A stretch of DNA of 64,000 nucleotides from a virus. The notes below the pieces were generated by a model. It saw only the letters and a program-made list of their open reading frames with translations. It was not told the origin of the DNA and ran no database searches. The position numbers and the translations under genes were made by a program. Shown here in pieces: positions 11,524-49,684 of the stretch (within the stretch, counting starts at the first letter, position 1; each line of letters opens with the position of its first letter). Where the stretch lies: positions 28,495 through 92,494 of IMG/VR virus record IMGVR_UViG_3300017917_003339; one strand, written 5' to 3'.

Positions 11524-11697
11524 TTGATTATTTTAATTTACTTAGAATTTCTTCGTTTTGTCTGATTAATTTAATTCTTTTTACAATGTTACCTCTGTTA
11601 GGTTTTGCTTTGGGTTTTTCTTTTCTTCTTGCCATAATATTGTTTTTACTATAAATATCTGGCCTAAATAAAAAAACCCATCATATGATGGGTTTAG

Positions 11698-11822
11698 TGG
11701 AGGGGGCGGGAATCGAACCACGCGTTTTTCAAATTTACAGTTTGCTTGATAATAAATTTATTTGCTGCAAACATTCTTTAACAGAAGCAGAATGTGTGTT
11801 TAACCAACATTTCAACCCCTCC
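11698..11822 (-). tRNA. tRNA-Tyr(GUA)-like RNA with inserted helix+CAGCA module
   Basis: Acceptor GGAGGGG/CCCCTCC, loop CTGTAAA, T-loop TTCGATT; ~50-nt insertion after the D arm. Confidence 0.6.
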
Positions 11823-11830
11823 TTGTTTTA

Positions 11831-11945
11831 GAGCCTAGCAGAGGACTCGAACCTCTCCTTATTCACCTAACGCAGCTTGTACAATGCCACTTGGTTCTCT
11901 TTCTGCTGGGATTTGCAGCGTGCTCCCTGATACACTAACTAGGCA
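11831..11945 (-). ncRNA. tRNA-like RNA with expanded anticodon region
   Basis: Acceptor GCCTAGT/GCTAGGC, D arm, T arm AGAGG-TTCGAGT-CCTCT; no 7-nt anticodon loop. Confidence 0.5.
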
Positions 11946-11963
11946 AATTCATGAAGCTTTTTC

Positions 11964-12050
11964 ACACCTGACAGGATTCGAACCTGCAATCTGGGGCTAT
12001 CTAAAACGCAAGTGCTGGGTCCCCATGTGATACCCTTTCACTACAAGCAT
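11964..12050 (-). ncRNA. tRNA-like RNA with expanded anticodon loop
   Basis: D arm GTGA..TCAC, stem TGGGG/CCCCA enclosing ~24 nt, T arm GCAGG-TTCGAAT-CCTGT. Confidence 0.5.
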
Positions 12051-12271
12051 AATACTCACTTCAAGACTACTCAGTACACGTACTAACCATACCTACGCAT
12101 CTTTTTACTCATTTACCATTCTTTACCGCTTTTTCCCAAAATACCTTATCATGCCCTTCCCATGATTTGGTTTTTAAAGCCTTTGCGTTTGATATATTCT
12201 GGAATACTCACAGCACGCCTTGATAAACTTTCAATCAACTCTCAATATGCTTTTCAACATACCTTTCATAG

Positions 12272-14949: not shown

Positions 14950-15028
14950 TGGGCCTAGTAGGAATCGAACCTACAAGAATTAACACGATTTTACAGACCG
15001 CTGAGCTCACCACCTGCTCAATAGACCC
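14950..15028 (-). tRNA. tRNA-Tyr(GUA)
   Basis: GCGGT-CTGTAAA-ATCGT. Confidence 0.85.
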
Positions 15029-15097
15029 AAGTTCAGGGTGGTGTATCGGTTTCAAATTAAAAGTTTGATGATAATGATTGCTGAAACCACCCTTTAG

Positions 15098-15169
15098 TTG
15101 GAGGATAGGGACTCGAACCCTAAAAACGACAGTCAAAGTGTCGTATGTTGCCAATTACATCATCCTCCA
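15098..15169 (-). tRNA. tRNA-Gln(UUG)
   Basis: CGACA-CTTTGAC-TGTCG. Confidence 0.9.
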
Positions 15170-24307: not shown

Positions 24308-24542
24308 TTTGTAATTGTTTATGTTTTACGATGCAAATATACGAAGTGTTTTTGTGTGTACCAAATTTTTAATGTTAACTGATTGTTAACAAAGACAGCG
24401 GCACGTGGGAATGACAAAACCTAAGTTCTAGAAACCGTTCACTCGTAAACGAGCTACACGCGCTTGTCTTTTTTATTAAGTTTAGAGGTAGCTTTACCGA
24501 TAAAGTCAATGGACGATATCAATACATTTTACTAAACTAGTA

Positions 24543-24624
24543 CAAGGAGCAGGACTCGAACCTGCGACCCTTCGGTCTGGGATTTCTCCCTCGCCAACCG
24601 CTCTAACCAACTGAGCTACCCCCG
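24543..24624 (-). ncRNA. tRNA-like RNA with non-canonical anticodon arm
   Basis: Canonical D arm TAGCTCAGTTGGTTAGAGC and T arm; anticodon region replaced by a GGGA-GAAA-TCCC hairpin. Confidence 0.55.
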
Positions 24625-24628
24625 TATA

Positions 24629-24780
24629 TAGGCAACAAGATTAACTTTTTAATACGCGCTCTAAACCAACTGAGCTACCACCCGAAATCTTTAATCTAGT
24701 TGGGTGGGAAGGACTCGAACCTCCGACCTCGTGCTTAAGAGGCTATTGATTTAAATTGCTGAAATAATCTTTTATACCTA
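24629..24780 (-). tRNA. circularly permuted tRNA-Lys(CUU) framed by helix+CAGCA module
   Basis: 3' half (24700-24743) precedes 5' half (24654-24684); acceptor GGGTGG/CCACCC; flanks pair TAGGTA..AAGATTA/TAATCTT..TGCCTA. Confidence 0.75.
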
Positions 24781-24784
24781 TTTT

Positions 24785-24964
24785 TTAAGCCTTAACTTTG
24801 GCTTTTAAAATGTCAATCTGTTTGTTGATGCGTTGTCTATCCGCATCGGTCAAAGCAACCTTTACGTCACTTGTACCCTTTTGGGTTTTTACACCACTTT
24901 TAAGTTGCGCCTCAAATTGCGCTAATGCTCTAGCTTGTCTAGATTTTTGTGCTAATGTAGCCAT
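24785..24964 (-). CDS. 59-aa basic hypothetical protein
   Basis: Manual translation MATLAQKSRQARALAQFEAQLKSG...KAKVKA. Confidence 0.65.
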   Translation of the reverse strand: MATLAQKSRQARALAQFEAQLKSGVKTQKGTSDVKVALTDADRQRINKQIDILKAKVKA

Positions 24965-31235: not shown

Positions 31236-31241
31236 TCTGTG

Positions 31242-31362
31242 CGGACGCAGTGGGACTCGAACCCACAGCTTTTTCGTGACAGGAAAATTAACTAATGCTG
31301 CTGGAGATAACCTTGTCAGGTTATGACTTGTTTTTAACATGTTACCCTTACACCATACGTCC
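31242..31362 (-). tRNA. tRNA-Asp(GUC) with inserted helix+CAGCA module
   Basis: GGACGTA/TGCGTCC, TTTTC-CTGTCAC-GAAAA; ~50-nt insertion after the D arm. Confidence 0.7.
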
Positions 31363-32726: not shown

Positions 32727-32805
32727 TGGTAGCCTCGACGGGGCTCGAACCCGCATTGCACACCTTGAAAGGATGGCTTCCTAGTCCGATTTAGAAGACA
32801 AGGCC
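32727..32805 (-). tRNA. tRNA-Glu(UUC)
   Basis: CATC-CTTTCAA-GGTG, encoded CCA. Confidence 0.85.
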
Positions 32806-32862
32806 ATGTTTATCGTTTCGGTTACCCCCACGCAGTGCACTTACGCAGGGACCTACTCCTTG

Positions 32863-33026
32863 TAGGAATGAGTGGATTCGAACCACTGACCTTCTCCCTT
32901 ATGATGGGAGTCGTTCTGAATGTGTTTTTTCAACCAACTTAATGGTAATTCATTAAGCACACACCCCGATTGTTGTTATTTACCATCTCCTTAAGGAGCC
33001 AATCAGACCGCTGAACGTACATTCCT
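32863..33026 (-). tRNA. tRNA(CAU)-like RNA with ~90-nt insertion in the D loop
   Basis: AGGAATG/CATTCCT, D stem CGTTC/GAACG, CTCCC-ATCATAA-GGGAG, canonical T arm. Confidence 0.65.
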
Positions 33027-34165: not shown

Positions 34166-34248
34166 TACCGCTGACTGGACTCGAACCAGCACACCCTTTC
34201 GGGCACCAGATTCTTAGTCTGGCGTGTCTACCATTCCACCACAGCGGC
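34166..34248 (-). tRNA. tRNA-Leu(AAG)
   Basis: CCAGA-CTAAGAA-TCTGG, long V arm. Confidence 0.9.
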
Positions 34249-34254
34249 AGGTAC

Positions 34255-34340
34255 AAGATAGTTAATTTTGTGGATTTGAACCACTTCGTTCGCATTTTAA
34301 GTGTGAATTTTTAACCAATTTTGTTTGCTGAAACTATCTT
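34255..34340 (-). ncRNA. mini tRNA-Leu(UAA) mimic closed by helix+CAGCA module
   Basis: AAGATAG-TTT-CAGCAAA...TTCACA-CTTAAAA-TGCGAA..GTGG-TTCAAAT-CCAC...CTATCTT. Confidence 0.6.
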
Positions 34341-34343
34341 TTG

Positions 34344-34418
34344 TAGGTCTGGAGGGATTCGAACCCCCGACTTTTTCCTTGTAAGAGAAACACTCTGAAC
34401 CAACTGAGTTACAGACCC
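34344..34418 (-). tRNA. tRNA-Val(UAC)
   Basis: TTTCT-CTTACAA-GGAAA. Confidence 0.9.
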
Positions 34419-43766: not shown

Positions 43767-44807
43767 TTACACCAACTTAAAGAACATATCTCTAACCTTA
43801 GAAGAGATATATTTGTTCACATCTTTTGGTTCAATTTTGTTGTCAACCATGGTATCCATTTCCTCTTTGATAACGTCATTTACCACCCATCTGATTACAT
43901 CACCCAACTTGTTGTTTTGGATTGGTTCTTCGTTAGGGAAAACGTTTTCAAGCGCTTGGTTGAAACGGCTTTCAGTTACAGCGTATTCAACAAACTTTTG
44001 GATTGATTCCAATTTTTCGGTATCAACAGCAGCAAGTGTTTTTACTTTGCTTGAACTGTGTTTCTCACCCTTTACTTTGAAACGGTGTACGTTTCCGTTG
44101 AGAGTTGTTGACCATACGATACCTTCACCAATACCAGAGAAACCAAATGCCTTAGCAACTGGACATTCTTCTTCAACCGCAAGGGTAAGTTCTGACAATT
44201 TGTTTTGAACCAACTGAGGCATGTTGAAGTCGATATCGATTGTCCATGTTGGGTAATCGTCAATGTTGAAAATTCTGTTTTCTGGGCTTTTCAAGTATGA
44301 GTAATCAACCCAATAAGCTGGTTTAACTTTAGCATCTTCTTCTGTTGTGGTGTGAGGTGTAACTTTAACACCAAAGATGAAGAATGATTTTTCAATGTTA
44401 GTGATACCAACACCCTTTTGAATGTTACCACCAGCCCATTCACCGTAAATAGTTACAGTATTTTCAAGCATGTCGATTTCGTTTTTGGTGAAAATGCTAG
44501 CAATCAACTCAGTGAATAGTTCTTTGTTTGATTCAACAAAAAATGCGAAACCAGCGTTGTCTTTTTTAGGTGTGATAATGTTTTCACGAGACTGAGCCCA
44601 AATACCATCTGATAAATTACCAGATACAGCAGCGTTTGTACCGTGAAGTTTAACGGTACCCTTAAACGTAAGCGTTGGCTTTGGTCTGGTGGTATCATAG
44701 ATTGCATCACCGTTTTCGTCAAGACCAGCAAAATTGTATTGTCTAAGAACAGTAGCAACTACACTTCTGAATTGTTCAATAGACGGAAATTTAATCATTT
44801 TTTTCAT
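43767..44807 (-). CDS. RNA ligase (Rnl2-like)
   Basis: KLHGTN motif I, YGEW, GEGIVW, FKVKG. Confidence 0.85.
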   Translation of the reverse strand: MKKMIKFPSIEQFRSVVATVLRQYNFAGLDENGDAIYDTTRPKPTLTFKGTVKLHGTNAAVSGNLSDGIWAQSRENIITPKKDNAGFAFFVESNKELFTELIASIFTKNEIDMLENTVTIYGEWAGGNIQKGVGITNIEKSFFIFGVKVTPHTTTEEDAKVKPAYWVDYSYLKSPENRIFNIDDYPTWTIDIDFNMPQLVQNKLSELTLAVEEECPVAKAFGFSGIGEGIVWSTTLNGNVHRFKVKGEKHSSSKVKTLAAVDTEKLESIQKFVEYAVTESRFNQALENVFPNEEPIQNNKLGDVIRWVVNDVIKEEMDTMVDNKIEPKDVNKYISSKVRDMFFKLV

Positions 44808-48559: not shown

Positions 48560-49684
48560 TTAGAGCATTTTGTATAACAATTTGTCATCGTAGTTAACAA
48601 TGAAGTTTTCTACTGAATCAACTTTACCATCAACAAGACCGAAATACAACCCAGTGAATTGTTTCAAGTCATATTTACCACAAACTTCAAAGACAGCCGC
48701 AGCATATCTTTTCTTTTCTTCTTTGGTAATGTTTTTTGGTTTACGAGCGCTTAACTCAACCCAAACTTCATTCAACTTATCAACCAACTTATCGTAATTT
48801 TCTTTAAGTCTGAATAATTCATCTTTTCTTTCTGGGAAAGTTGAAGCGAATTCTTCAATCTCGTTAGATTTAACGATAGTTATGATGTTGTGTTCAGCTG
48901 TTTTACCTTTCAAGTGGTGAACCGCAACGTAAGCTGGGTTTTTTATCTTGATACGGTTGAAGTTAGCGTCAACTACAACGTAGCCTTCGTCGTGCCATAT
49001 CATGTTTTCAAAGGTTCTTAACAAAACACCAACGTTGTTAGCGTTTAAGTCAAATCTTTTAACAAGTGGTACTCTCAACGATTCTGCAATCATAGTTAAG
49101 TCTTTCCATGAAACTTCTTGCAAAGTAACAAGGTTTCTAACAGTCAACAAAGTTGCTGATGATTCACCGTGTGGTTTTACAACGATGTTGTATGGAGTTG
49201 TTAACTCGAATACATACACGTGGTCTTTATCAAGCATGCATGGGTTTAACGCATATTGTTTTGTAACAGTGTCCCAAAACAACGAGTTGAATGTAGTTCC
49301 CATTTTGTTGTTAACTTCACCTTCACCCTCAGCTGTACCAGTGGTACCAGCAAACCATTCGTTTTTATGCCAATCCCAATATAGTTGGATAAGTGTACCG
49401 TCAAGTTTTTCTAATACGTGCGCTGTGTTCCAATCTACTTTATGTGCGTTTGATTCCTCAGCGTTGAAGAATTTGGTGAACGCCAATGACATAACATCCC
49501 ATGAACCTTTTTCAAGGATAAGTCCTCTACATTCTTGAACTTCTATGTTTGACATAAGAGTTGGTGCAGACAATTGGTCGTATTTCAATAACACTTTGTA
49601 GTCGTATTCACGAACCTTTAATTGAAATTTGTTAACGGCTGCATTTAAACCGTGTTGTCTTATGTAATTTTGTATCTGTAACAT
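48560..49684 (-). CDS. RNA ligase 1 (T4 Rnl1-like)
   Basis: ECRGLIL, KFFN, EKLDGT, FEL, EGYVV, KIK. Confidence 0.9.
   Translation of the reverse strand: MLQIQNYIRQHGLNAAVNKFQLKVREYDYKVLLKYDQLSAPTLMSNIEVQECRGLILEKGSWDVMSLAFTKFFNAEESNAHKVDWNTAHVLEKLDGTLIQLYWDWHKNEWFAGTTGTAEGEGEVNNKMGTTFNSLFWDTVTKQYALNPCMLDKDHVYVFELTTPYNIVVKPHGESSATLLTVRNLVTLQEVSWKDLTMIAESLRVPLVKRFDLNANNVGVLLRTFENMIWHDEGYVVVDANFNRIKIKNPAYVAVHHLKGKTAEHNIITIVKSNEIEEFASTFPERKDELFRLKENYDKLVDKLNEVWVELSARKPKNITKEEKKRYAAAVFEVCGKYDLKQFTGLYFGLVDGKVDSVENFIVNYDDKLLYKML

What the first reader, a model, noticed from the sequence alone, without database searches (positions are those of the whole stretch)
24629..24780. Circularly permuted tRNA-Lys(CUU) gene
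On the minus strand the 3' half (GC-CTCTTAA-GCACG-AGGTC-GGAGG-TTCGAGT-CCTTC-CCACCCA) comes before a ~15-nt linker and the 5' half (CGGGTGG-TA-GCTCAGTTGGTTTAGAGC-G-CGT). Together they give acceptor GGGTGG/CCACCC and anticodon stem CGT+GC/GCACG. The outer flanks pair with each other and carry the same CAGCA module found as an insertion in other tRNAs here. Permuted tRNAs are known in some algae and an archaeon; I know of none in phages. The phage RNA ligases could join the halves, or the RNA may be a non-chargeable decoy.
Basis: partly seen in the sequence, partly recalled or inferred. Interest (0 to 1): 0.8.

Follow-up and report, generated by a model that had tools for sequence, protein, structure and literature searches.

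The report
Phage tRNA-shaped Y-like RNA
The "back-to-front tRNA-Lys gene" is real in the sequence. It is most likely not a tRNA gene but a small phage RNA that imitates a whole tRNA with a sealed acceptor end, mounted on a conserved "handle" that in many phages lies beside the gene of a Ro60-shaped RNA-binding protein.

Summary
Observation confirmed. On the minus strand at 24781-24628 the 3' half of a tRNA precedes the 5' half, and joined in silico they give a clean tRNA-Lys(CUU) cloverleaf.

It is one of at least 35 distinct members of a conserved RNA family in related jumbo phages and metagenomes. A model built without the window scores it at 122.6 bits (E 1e-22). Every helix covaries.

The acceptor stem is a closed hairpin of 7-10 bp, and 20 of 35 members cap it with loops of 3-4 nt (UUCG in three). 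The RNA ends pair in a covarying stem followed by UUU-CAGCAA. The anticodon-like loop keeps YU-NNU-AA while the triplet varies (GUU, CUU, CCU, UUU, UGU, AUU). This is the YrlA (Y RNA-like) layout, and Rfam YrlA matches full-length but below threshold (34.7 vs 69 bits).

The same handle lies within 250 nt downstream of DUF2828 genes in 76 phage loci. The DUF2828 protein of the closest relatives folds like Ro60. No such gene is on this 26%-complete contig.

Best reading: a tRNA-mimic partner RNA of a phage Ro60-like protein, not a tRNA to be cut and re-joined. This scan has noted CAGCAA-handle RNAs on other DNA before. No transcript or binding data could be obtained.

The parts
24628..24781 (-). 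Whole RNA element, from the 5' strand of P1 to the 3' strand of P1 (about 154 nt). It follows the stop of a 59-codon ORF and is followed at once by a tRNA-shaped gene (24541-24625).
   Evidence: Leave-one-out model R1: 122.6 bits, E 1.1e-22, window 24625-24784, full length. Rfam YrlA RF02553: 34.7 bits, E 4.6e-6, model 1-114.
24775..24781 (-). P1, 5' strand (ATAGGTA). It pairs with 24628-24634.
   Evidence: P1 covaries across the family: TAGGTA/TACCTA, GGG/CCC, GATA/TATC, GGGA/TCCC, TAGACA/TGTCTA, AAAAGG/CCTTTT.
24765..24771 (-). P2, the handle's closing stem, 5' strand (AAGATTA). It pairs with 24637-24643.
   Evidence: Paired in 35 of 35 sequences. Compensatory AGCTTA/TAAGCT in 3 sequences and AGTTTA/TAAGCT in 1. 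Same stem type as in the RNAs next to DUF2828 genes.
24756..24764 (-). Handle motif UUU-CAGCAA (CAGCAA at 24756-24761), single-stranded, followed by an A-rich linker at 24745-24755.
   Evidence: Invariant in 35 of 35 sequences. CAGCAA is enriched about 15-fold in the 250 nt downstream of DUF2828 genes, on the gene strand only.
24732..24744 (-). Anticodon-like hairpin: 3-bp lower stem (AGC/GCA, with an A.A mismatch here) and 7-nt loop CTCTTAA (CTT at 24737-24739).
   Evidence: All three pairs covary (AGC/GCT, GCT/AGC, AGG/CCT, ACT/AGT). Loop triplets: GTT 26, CTT 4, ATT 2, CCT 1, TTT 1, TGT 1, always with T33, T36, A37 and A38.
24730..24731 (-). Upper anticodon stem, 3' strand (CG). It pairs with CG at 24655-24656 after the D arm.
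   Evidence: Invariant C-G and G-C in 35 of 35 sequences, so there is no covariation to test.
24708..24724 (-). T arm (GGAGG-TTCGAGT-CCTTC).
   Evidence: Three of 5 pairs show changes on both sides and 100% of cells are paired. The T-loop TTCGA is invariant.
24678..24707 (-). Acceptor-like hairpin, closed: CCACCC/GGGTGG with an 18-nt loop, or 8 stem positions with one mismatch and a 14-nt loop.
   Evidence: Across the family the stems are 7-10 bp and covary. Loops are 3-14 nt, and 20 of 35 are 4 nt or shorter (UUCG, GCA, GAUA, CUAG).
24658..24677 (-). TA (positions 8-9) and the D arm (GCTC-AGTTGGTTTA-GAGC).
   Evidence: 100% paired. GG in the loop is conserved.
24644..24654 (-). 3' linker (TATTAAAAAGT) between the tRNA body and the 3' strand of P2.
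   Evidence: A-rich in all members, starting TATG or AAAA in most. The YrlA consensus also has UAUG at this place.
24637..24643 (-). P2, 3' strand (TAATCTT), followed by GT at 24635-24636.
   Evidence: A G after the stem is also the rule in the DUF2828-adjacent RNAs.
24628..24634 (-). P1, 3' strand (TGCCTAT).

Best explanation
This is the gene of a roughly 150-nt non-coding RNA of the Y RNA-like (YrlA-like) kind. Shown: it belongs to a conserved, covarying RNA family of a clade of jumbo phages. Its two ends pair into a stem (P1, P2) followed by a single-stranded UUU-CAGCAA 'handle'. The rest folds as a complete tRNA look-alike written in permuted order: anticodon hairpin, variable loop, T arm, sealed acceptor hairpin, D arm. 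The anticodon stem is interrupted on its 5' strand, where the handle leaves. Inferred: it is transcribed with the neighbouring tRNA-type genes, and its 3' end is set free when RNase P cuts at the 5' end of the tRNA-shaped RNA that follows directly. It adopts the tRNA L-shape, since the T-loop, D-loop GG, U8 and the 15-48 pair are kept, but it cannot be charged because the acceptor end is closed. Inferred from association: the handle is bound by the phage's Ro60-shaped protein (DUF2828 + DUF7788, PHROG 850 'RNA-binding protein'). The tRNA-shaped part, with its anticodon loop on show, then recruits or occupies a factor that recognises tRNAs. Candidates are a host anticodon nuclease, a tRNA-modifying enzyme, or the phage's own Rnl1/Rnl2 repair enzymes. 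This would parallel the way Y RNAs tether Ro60/Rsr to PNPase. The partner protein is likely; the downstream activity is a guess.
For: Anatomy: joined halves give tRNA-Lys(ctt). Family: 35 distinct members from viral and metagenome contigs parse into one architecture. Membership: the leave-one-out model gives 122.6 bits, E 1e-22. Covariation: 98.6% of cells are paired against 89.6% in shuffles (0 of 500 reach it), with 67 double-change cells against 19.5; sliding the partners drops pairing to 19-42%. P1 and the acceptor stems differ in sequence yet stay paired. Sealed acceptor: stems 7-10 bp, loops 3-14 nt, 20 of 35 at 4 nt or less, UUCG in three. YrlA layout: RF02553 aligns full-length at 34.7 bits, E 4.6e-6, here and at 24-46 bits in relatives. 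Partner: relatives G001, G002 and G018 encode a 484-aa DUF2828/DUF7788 protein. Its AlphaFold model (pLDDT 70.5) has Ro60/Rsr/TROVE structures as its 13 best Foldseek matches: phiLo Ro60 at 1.2e-8, D. radiodurans Rsr at 1.8e-6, then Xenopus and human Ro60. Handle-gene link: in 76 phage loci CAGCAA occurs 46 times in the first 250 nt and 28 times in the next 250 nt downstream of the DUF2828 gene on the gene strand. Background is about 3 per bin, the other strand has 0 and 4, and permuted hexamers give 1-4. Those RNAs show the same handle, a 7-8 bp stem beginning A-AG, 2-3 nt, CNGCAA, an A-rich stretch, the return strand and then G, with covarying stems. Context: Rnl1-like and Rnl2-like RNA ligase genes lie on the same contig. 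Precedent: Rsr-YrlA tRNA mimicry (PMC4201824) and phage phiLo Ro60 binding Yrl RNAs through a stem-plus-bulge motif (PMC12135203).
Against: No Ro60-like gene (PF05731 or PF11443) lies on this 92-kb contig. In the closest near-complete relative it is 55 kb from the RNA, so adjacency, the criterion used for YrlA, is not met for this RNA. The YrlA match is far below Rfam's threshold, and the published Rsr-binding motif GNCGAAN0-1G is absent. Model R1 finds no permuted-tRNA cargo next to DUF2828 genes in 78 loci, only two weak hits. The link therefore rests on the shared handle alone. The 76 loci are related to one another (55-100% protein identity), so the enrichment counts are not independent events. 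The window's copy has an A.A mismatch in the anticodon stem and could be a decaying copy.
Confidence: 0.68

Rival explanations
1. A protein-independent anticodon-arm or tRNA decoy. The sealed tRNA mimic itself soaks up or inhibits a host tRNA-cutting defence enzyme or a tRNA-modifying enzyme. The handle only stabilises the RNA or directs its processing.
For: The loop keeps the tRNA signature YU-NNU-AA while the triplet changes between relatives (GUU, CUU, CCU, UUU, UGU, AUU). Other handle RNAs in the window show the exact loops of the phage's own tRNA-Lys(UUU) and tRNA-Leu(UAA). The phage carries about 50 tRNAs and two RNA ligases, the usual equipment against tRNA-cutting defences. No Ro60-like gene lies near this RNA.
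Against: This does not explain why the handle, not the cargo, is the invariant part. It also does not explain why that handle lies directly behind DUF2828 genes in many phages. It is compatible with the best explanation as the downstream activity.
Confidence: 0.15
2. A true circularly permuted tRNA-Lys(CUU) gene. The transcript is cut in the acceptor loop by RNase P and a 3' nuclease. Its outer ends are trimmed and ligated by Rnl1/Rnl2 at the anticodon stem, giving a chargeable tRNA.
For: The joined halves give a perfect cloverleaf. The window's copy and two relatives have long acceptor loops (13-18 nt) that could be removed. No other tRNA-Lys(CUU) is on the contig. Rnl1-like and Rnl2-like ligases are present. 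M. smegmatis YrlA is cut by RNase P and receives CCA (PMC4201824).
Against: Most family members close the acceptor stem with 3-4 nt loops and have stems of 8-10 bp, which cannot yield a 7-bp stem plus discriminator plus CCA. Position 1-72 is a C.A mismatch. There is no bulge-helix-bulge motif and no splicing endonuclease. The break lies inside the anticodon stem, at 28|29, where no known permuted tRNA is split (C. merolae junctions, my own knowledge). The triplet includes AUU, which is not a usual anticodon. Three tRNA-Lys(UUU) genes can already read AAG.
Confidence: 0.04
3. A processing or regulatory element of the tRNA operon. A tRNA-shaped punctuation mark would attract RNase P or other tRNA enzymes to cut the polycistronic transcript, or would regulate the downstream 240-aa gene with which it is syntenic.
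For: It sits between an ORF and a tRNA-shaped gene inside a tRNA-rich transcription unit. It is syntenic with the 240-aa gene across protein identities of 49-81% in the viral loci.
Against: A punctuation mark needs neither an anticodon hairpin nor an invariant CAGCAA handle. In the more distant relatives the RNA lies about 1 kb from the 240-aa gene. The same handle occurs in other contexts.
Confidence: 0.06
4. Non-functional remnants of two tandem tRNA genes that lost an outer half each.
For: This is the accepted route by which permuted tRNA genes arise. The window's copy has one stem mismatch.
Against: The arrangement is kept in 35 distinct sequences with compensatory changes in every helix, and the model score is 122.6 bits.
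Confidence: 0.01

Closest known systems
YrlA (Y RNA-like A), Rfam RF02553: the tRNA-mimicking Y RNA bound by bacterial and mycobacteriophage Ro60/Rsr (Chen et al. 2014, PMC4201824; structure preprint 10.1101/312249)
   Same: The RNA ends pair into a protein-binding stem. The rest imitates tRNA in the same permuted order: T arm, closed acceptor-like stem, D arm. tRNA tertiary nucleotides are kept. UAUG follows the D-side stem and CUUGU lies near the 3' strand. The whole model aligns.
   Different: The score is half the Rfam threshold. CAGCAA after the stem replaces GNCGAAN0-1G within it. There is an extra hairpin with a genuine 7-nt anticodon loop, so the whole cloverleaf is imitated. No TROVE (PF05731) gene is in the phage, and the candidate partner is a DUF2828-type Ro60-fold protein that is not adjacent to this RNA.
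Thermus phage phiLo Ro60 with Yrl1/Yrl2 (PMC12135203; PDB 9KOP, 9L5Y)
   Same: A phage-encoded Ro60-fold protein binds phage RNAs that have a 5'-3' stem flanking a bulge with a short conserved motif. It is the best structural match of the DUF2828 protein.
   Different: The motif is CGAA, not CAGCAA. The paper's text does not use the term tRNA-like for Yrl1/2. Those RNAs lie directly upstream of the Ro60 gene. Sequence similarity between the proteins is insignificant (E 0.26-0.36).
Circularly permuted tRNA genes of Cyanidioschyzon merolae and other algae, and of an archaeon (my own knowledge; mentioned in PMC4238349 and PMC3400036)
   Same: The 3' half is encoded before the 5' half. The leader and trailer pair with each other. 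The joined halves give a cloverleaf.
   Different: Those genes are matured through a bulge-helix-bulge cut, ligation to a circle and removal of the acceptor linker, and they give working tRNAs. Here there is no such motif or enzyme, the acceptor is sealed by short stable loops, and the flanks are a conserved handle.
CAGCAA-handle RNAs noted by this scan on other phage DNA (unpublished AI notes, e.g. e1-5375047, e1-5823508, e1-5365180)
   Same: Closing stem, 2-3 bases, CNGCAA, and varied tRNA-like cargo inside tRNA arrays. The proposed partner is a DUF2828 Ro60-like protein.
   Different: Here the cargo is a complete cloverleaf including an anticodon loop, and the partner gene is not on the contig. 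Those notes are leads. I re-tested the link.

Membership tests
YrlA (Rfam RF02553) | tRNA-like module in the order T arm, closed acceptor-like stem, D arm, with tRNA-type T and D loops | tested here: met
YrlA (Rfam RF02553) | Score at or above the family's gathering threshold (69 bits) | tested here: not met
   34.7 bits here and 24-46 bits in relatives. Tandem tRNAs give 20-31 bits, but only partial alignments.
YrlA (Rfam RF02553) | GNCGAAN0-1G motif near the 5' end (proposed Rsr contact, PMC4201824) | tested here: not met
   The invariant motif is UUUCAGCAA. No GNCGAA occurs in the 5' strand.
YrlA (Rfam RF02553) | Encoded within about 4 kb of a TROVE-domain Ro60/Rsr gene, on the same strand | tested here: not met
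   No PF05731 match in the own contig or in 24 related records. A Ro60-fold DUF2828 gene lies 55 kb away in G001.
YrlA (Rfam RF02553) | Bound by Ro60/Rsr in cells | not testable with these tools
   Needs immunoprecipitation or a gel-shift assay.
Circularly permuted tRNA gene | 3' half upstream of 5' half; the joined halves fold as a canonical tRNA | tested here: met
Circularly permuted tRNA gene | Bulge-helix-bulge motif at the paired termini, and a splicing endonuclease to cut it | tested here: not met
   The flanks form P1/P2 with an A-rich internal loop. PF01974 is absent from the own contig and from G001.
Circularly permuted tRNA gene | A removable linker between the acceptor strands that leaves a 7-bp stem, discriminator and CCA site | tested here: not met
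   Stems are 7-10 bp and loops 3-14 nt; 20 of 35 loops are 4 nt or shorter, including UUCG. The window's own copy (loop 14-18 nt) is inconclusive.
Circularly permuted tRNA gene | A mature, re-joined, aminoacylated tRNA exists | not testable with these tools
CNGCAA-handle RNAs associated with DUF2828 Ro60-like genes (uncatalogued) | 7-8 bp closing stem beginning A-AG, 2-3 nt, CNGCAA, an A-rich stretch, cargo, the return strand, then G | tested here: met
   The window has AAGATTA-ttt-CAGCAA-tttaaatcaa...TAATCTT-g. The pattern was taken from RNAs behind DUF2828 genes.
CNGCAA-handle RNAs associated with DUF2828 Ro60-like genes (uncatalogued) | A DUF2828/Ro60-fold gene in the same genome | tested here: inconclusive
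   Absent from the 26%-complete contig. Present in relatives G001, G002 and G018. By synteny with G001 it would lie about 16 kb beyond the contig end (my arithmetic).

The most novel reading that the evidence does not exclude
The phage Ro60-like particle displays exchangeable anticodon arms. Each handle RNA presents a sealed tRNA, or only its anticodon hairpin, matching a tRNA species that host defence nucleases attack (Lys, Asn, Arg, Leu, Asp). The particle would then trap these nucleases, or guide Rnl1/Rnl2 repair, in an anticodon-specific way. The triplet swaps between related phages would track the defences of their hosts.
Probability: 0.15. Interest if true: 0.85.

Novelty: new variant of a known kind. 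Interest (0 to 1): 0.6.

Why it matters
Ro60 and its Y RNAs are a conserved but poorly understood RNA-surveillance particle, and bacterial YrlA already showed that Y RNAs can imitate tRNA.

This RNA family extends that idea in four ways:
- It imitates the whole cloverleaf, including a real anticodon loop whose triplet changes between phages.
- It uses a different handle (CAGCAA).
- It points to a Ro60-fold protein family, DUF2828, that the TROVE model (Pfam PF05731) did not match in the records that encode it.
- It is common in large environmental phages, yet absent from Rfam and from the papers I could search.

It also warns annotators that a permuted tRNA in a phage tRNA array is probably a mimic, not a gene that needs splicing. 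If the anticodon loop is what the particle presents, these RNAs would offer a direct way to test how phages deal with tRNA-cutting defences.

Tried and rejected
- Megablast and blastn of the region against deposited phages gave no relative, only ordinary tRNA matches.
- An exact pattern for the permuted Lys arrangement found nothing in viral contigs.
- The 18-mer TTTCAGCAATTTAAATCA found 5 unrelated chance loci besides the 4 known relatives.
- The neighbouring 208-aa protein gave no related loci.
- In the metagenome scan, 75 of the 110 distinct matched stretches were chance matches: 71 without a T loop plus L077, L088, L106 and L176. I removed them by eye and by a T-loop test.
- TROVE and RtcB were not found in the own contig. 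TROVE was not found in the 24 related records either.
- Pfam and PHROGs gave nothing for the five neighbouring ORFs tested in both libraries.
- A single-sequence AlphaFold model of the DUF2828 protein was unusable (pLDDT 38.7). The model from a 21-sequence alignment was used instead.
- Sequence and profile searches of that protein against PDB gave TROVE as the top hit, but without significance (E 0.26-0.36).
- A loose 'stem + CNGCA' finder is not specific on its own: 60 hits against about 52 in shuffles. Only hits with the full pattern inside tRNA arrays were kept.
- Model R1 found no permuted-tRNA cargo beside DUF2828 genes.
- The RNAfold MFE of the region does not draw the cloverleaf. I set this aside because tRNA folds depend on tertiary contacts.

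Full report
**What is in the sequence.**
The window is part of a 92.5-kb viral contig judged 26% complete, so the phage is probably about 350 kb. It carries about 50 tRNA genes, all on the minus strand. At 24743-24701 (minus strand) lie the last two bases of an anticodon-stem 5' strand, the loop CTCTTAA, the 3' strand, a variable loop, a T arm and CCACCCA. After 17 nt come GGGTGG, TA, a D arm and G-CGT, at 24683-24654. Joined in a script, the two halves are called tRNA-Lys(ctt) by ARAGORN, with 76 nt, all four arms and a C1.A72 mismatch.

**Relatives.**
Deposited phage genomes hold nothing similar. I found relatives through the neighbouring 240-aa protein.
- The protein led to four close IMG/VR contigs (81% protein identity) and, using an alignment of its homologues, to 20 more distant ones.
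- The close relatives have the same permuted layout at the same place.
- A metagenome scan with two conserved flank motifs raised the set to 35 distinct sequences.
- One regular expression parses all 35 into the same parts.
- A covariance model built from the 34 sequences other than the window scores the window at 122.6 bits, E 1.1e-22, over the full model. Tandem ordinary tRNAs give only partial alignments of 50 bits or less.

**Structure.**
From 5' to 3' the parts are:
1. The P1 strand.
2. A short A-rich internal loop.
3. The P2 strand (AAGAUUA).
4. UUU-CAGCAA and an A-rich linker.
5. A hairpin of 3 bp with a 7-nt anticodon-type loop.
6. CG, a variable loop and the T arm.
7. An acceptor-like hairpin.
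8. UA, the D arm, and A-CG, which pairs with the earlier CG.
9. An A-rich linker.
10. The P2 return strand, then G, then the P1 return strand.

On the core helices, 98.6% of cells pair against 89.6% after shuffling (0 of 500 shuffles reach this). There are 67 cells with changes on both sides against 19.5 expected. Sliding the partners by 1-3 columns drops pairing to 19-42%. P1 and the acceptor stem have quite different sequences in different members yet always pair. In 34 relatives the anticodon stem is split as CG | NNN. The window alone has A.A at the first pair of the lower stem.

**Why it is not a tRNA gene waiting to be re-joined.**
- The acceptor stem is closed. Stems are 7-10 bp and loops 3-14 nt, and 20 of 35 loops have 4 nt or fewer, among them UUCG, GCA, GAUA and CUAG. 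Such hairpins cannot give a 7-bp stem with a discriminator and CCA.
- There is no bulge-helix-bulge motif, and neither this contig nor the 86%-complete relative has a splicing endonuclease.
- The invariant letters lie in the handle, not in the tRNA identity positions.
- The triplet in the loop varies: GUU 26, CUU 4, AUU 2, and CCU, UUU and UGU once each. U33, U36, A37 and A38 stay fixed.
- The window holds smaller RNAs with the same handle that carry only an anticodon hairpin (15023-15106, loop CUUUUAA) or an anticodon-like hairpin plus a T arm (34243-34353, loop CUUAAAA). It also holds a whole tRNA-Asp(GUC) with the handle inserted as a closed hairpin between positions 26 and 27 (31241-31362).

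For the window's own copy, whose acceptor loop is long, a cut by RNase P cannot be excluded. Such a cut was shown for M. smegmatis YrlA (PMC4201824). It would give a two-piece mimic, not a tRNA.

**Closest known family.**
The score was 34.7 bits, E 4.6e-6, against a gathering score of 69. The relatives score 24-46 bits. YrlA RNAs are Y RNA-like partners of bacterial and mycobacteriophage Ro60/Rsr. Their ends form the protein-binding stem, and the rest imitates a tRNA in exactly this permuted order (PMC4201824). Three defining features fail here: the Rfam threshold, the GNCGAAN0-1G motif, and a TROVE gene within 4 kb. I therefore say it works like a YrlA but do not file it as one.

**The handle and its likely partner.**
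Earlier notes of this scan, which are AI leads and not evidence, named a 'CAGCAA handle' that goes with DUF2828 proteins. I tested this.
- DUF2828 (PF11443) is absent from the own contig.
- It is present in the closest relatives G001 and G002 and in G018. It is absent from G023, a 96%-complete and more distant phage in which the YrlA-model search also found no member of this RNA family.
- By synteny with G001 the gene would lie about 16 kb beyond the end of our contig (my arithmetic).
- The 484-aa protein carries DUF2828 and DUF7788 and matches PHROG 850 'RNA-binding protein'.
- Its AlphaFold model from a 21-sequence alignment (pLDDT 70.5) has Ro60-type structures as its 13 best Foldseek hits. 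These are phage phiLo Ro60 at 1.2e-8, D. radiodurans Rsr at 1.8e-6, and Xenopus and human Ro60. TM-scores are modest (0.32-0.45).
- In 76 viral loci holding a DUF2828 gene, CAGCAA occurs 46 times in the first 250 nt and 28 times in the next 250 nt downstream on the gene strand. Other bins have about 3, the opposite strand has 0 and 4, and permuted hexamers give 1-4. CTGCAA adds 25 in the first bin.
- These downstream RNAs have a covarying 7-8 bp stem beginning A-AG, then 2-3 nt, CNGCAA, an A-rich stretch such as CUUAAAUCAA, their cargo, the return strand and G. This is the handle of the window's RNA.
- In G001 one such RNA starts about 90 nt after the gene's stop.
- Phage phiLo Ro60 binds RNAs with a stem and a bulged CGAA motif (PMC12135203), which is a precedent for this kind of recognition.

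**Mechanism proposed.**
- Shown: a conserved structured RNA with a sealed tRNA mimic and a handle shared with RNAs encoded beside Ro60-fold genes.
- Inferred: co-transcription with the tRNA-type genes, and release of the 3' end by RNase P cleavage of the tRNA-shaped RNA that starts 3 nt after P1.
- Inferred: binding of the handle by the DUF2828 protein.
- Inferred: use of the tRNA-shaped part to recruit or occupy a tRNA-recognising factor.

The contig also encodes Rnl1-like and Rnl2-like RNA ligases. The setting therefore resembles the rsr-yrlBA-rtcBA RNA-repair operon of Salmonella (PMC7790460). Which factor is engaged is unknown. A decoy for anticodon nucleases is the most attractive guess, because the anticodon loop is kept and its triplet varies.

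**Novelty.**
- In print: Ro60 with tRNA-like Y RNAs in bacteria and mycobacteriophages (PMC4201824).
- In print: a remark that some jumbo phages carry a ROT/TROVE protein, which in cellular organisms has a tRNA-like partner (PMC7824862).
- In print: phiLo Ro60 with Yrl1 and Yrl2 (PMC12135203).
- Not found: any paper linking DUF2828 to Ro60 or to RNAs, and any Rfam family that reaches its threshold here.
- This scan has already noted CAGCAA-handle RNAs, some with permuted tRNA cargo, on other phage DNA. Within the scan this is a further instance.

**Limits.**
- There is no expression, end-mapping or binding evidence.
- The partner gene is not on this contig.
- The 76 loci are related to one another.
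- The structural match to Ro60 rests on a medium-confidence model.

Noticed in passing
window 15023-15106 (-): Mini handle RNA between tRNA-Gln and tRNA-Tyr. It has an 8-bp stem AGGGTGGT/ACCACCCT, then tt-CAGCAA. Its only cargo is a 5-bp hairpin whose loop CTTTTAA is identical to that of the phage's tRNA-Lys(UUU).
   Followed up: partly
window 34243-34353 (-): Handle RNA between tRNA-Val and tRNA-Leu. It has the stem AAGATAGT/ACTATCTT, then tt-CAGCAA. Its cargo is an imperfect hairpin with loop CTTAAAA, the loop of tRNA-Leu(UAA), plus a T arm (GTGG-TTCAAAT-CCAC). It has no D arm or acceptor. R1 scores it at 25.6 bits, full length.
   Followed up: partly
window 31241-31362 (-): A complete tRNA with open acceptor ends and anticodon arm TTTTC-CTGTCAC-GAAAA (Asp, GUC). 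It carries about 50 nt inserted between the D arm and the anticodon stem: an A-rich stretch, a closed 7-bp hairpin, then CT-CCAGCAGC. This looks like the unpermuted isomer of the handle-plus-tRNA design. ARAGORN miscalls it Cys with an intron.
   Followed up: partly
window 11622-12051 (-): Several more odd tRNA-shaped RNAs with CCAGCA or CAGCAA inside enlarged anticodon regions (11831-11944, 11962-12051), and a possible handle RNA at about 11622-11790 (R1 23.6 bits).
   Followed up: no
window 24541-24625 (-): The tRNA-shaped gene directly downstream scores 42 bits against Rfam tRNA but has an 18-nt anticodon loop containing the hairpin GGGA-GAAA-TCCC. The relatives have a shorter, different loop at this place.
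   Followed up: no
window 24785-24964 (-): A conserved 59-codon ORF, basic and with no family match, sits between tRNA-shaped genes and ends 3 nt before the RNA element. It is conserved in the four close relatives.
   Followed up: partly
window 48929-49534 (-) and 44070-44657 (-): Rnl1-like (PF09511, 52.7 bits) and Rnl2-like (PF09414, 40.5 bits) RNA ligase genes. The same pair is present in relative G001.
   Followed up: partly
L202:10962-11072 (+) = G001:189961-190071: An RNA with the CCCAGCAAC motif and paired ends (UUAAU/AUUAA, GUCUU/GAGAC) starts about 90 nt after the stop of the DUF2828 gene of the closest near-complete relative. A hairpin followed by a run of T, likely a terminator, comes after it.
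   Followed up: partly
window 32862-33026 (-): ARAGORN calls a tRNA-Met(cat) with an 88-nt insertion. R1 gives a weak full-length hit at 32788-32940 (22.1 bits). This may be another cargo-bearing tRNA.
   Followed up: no
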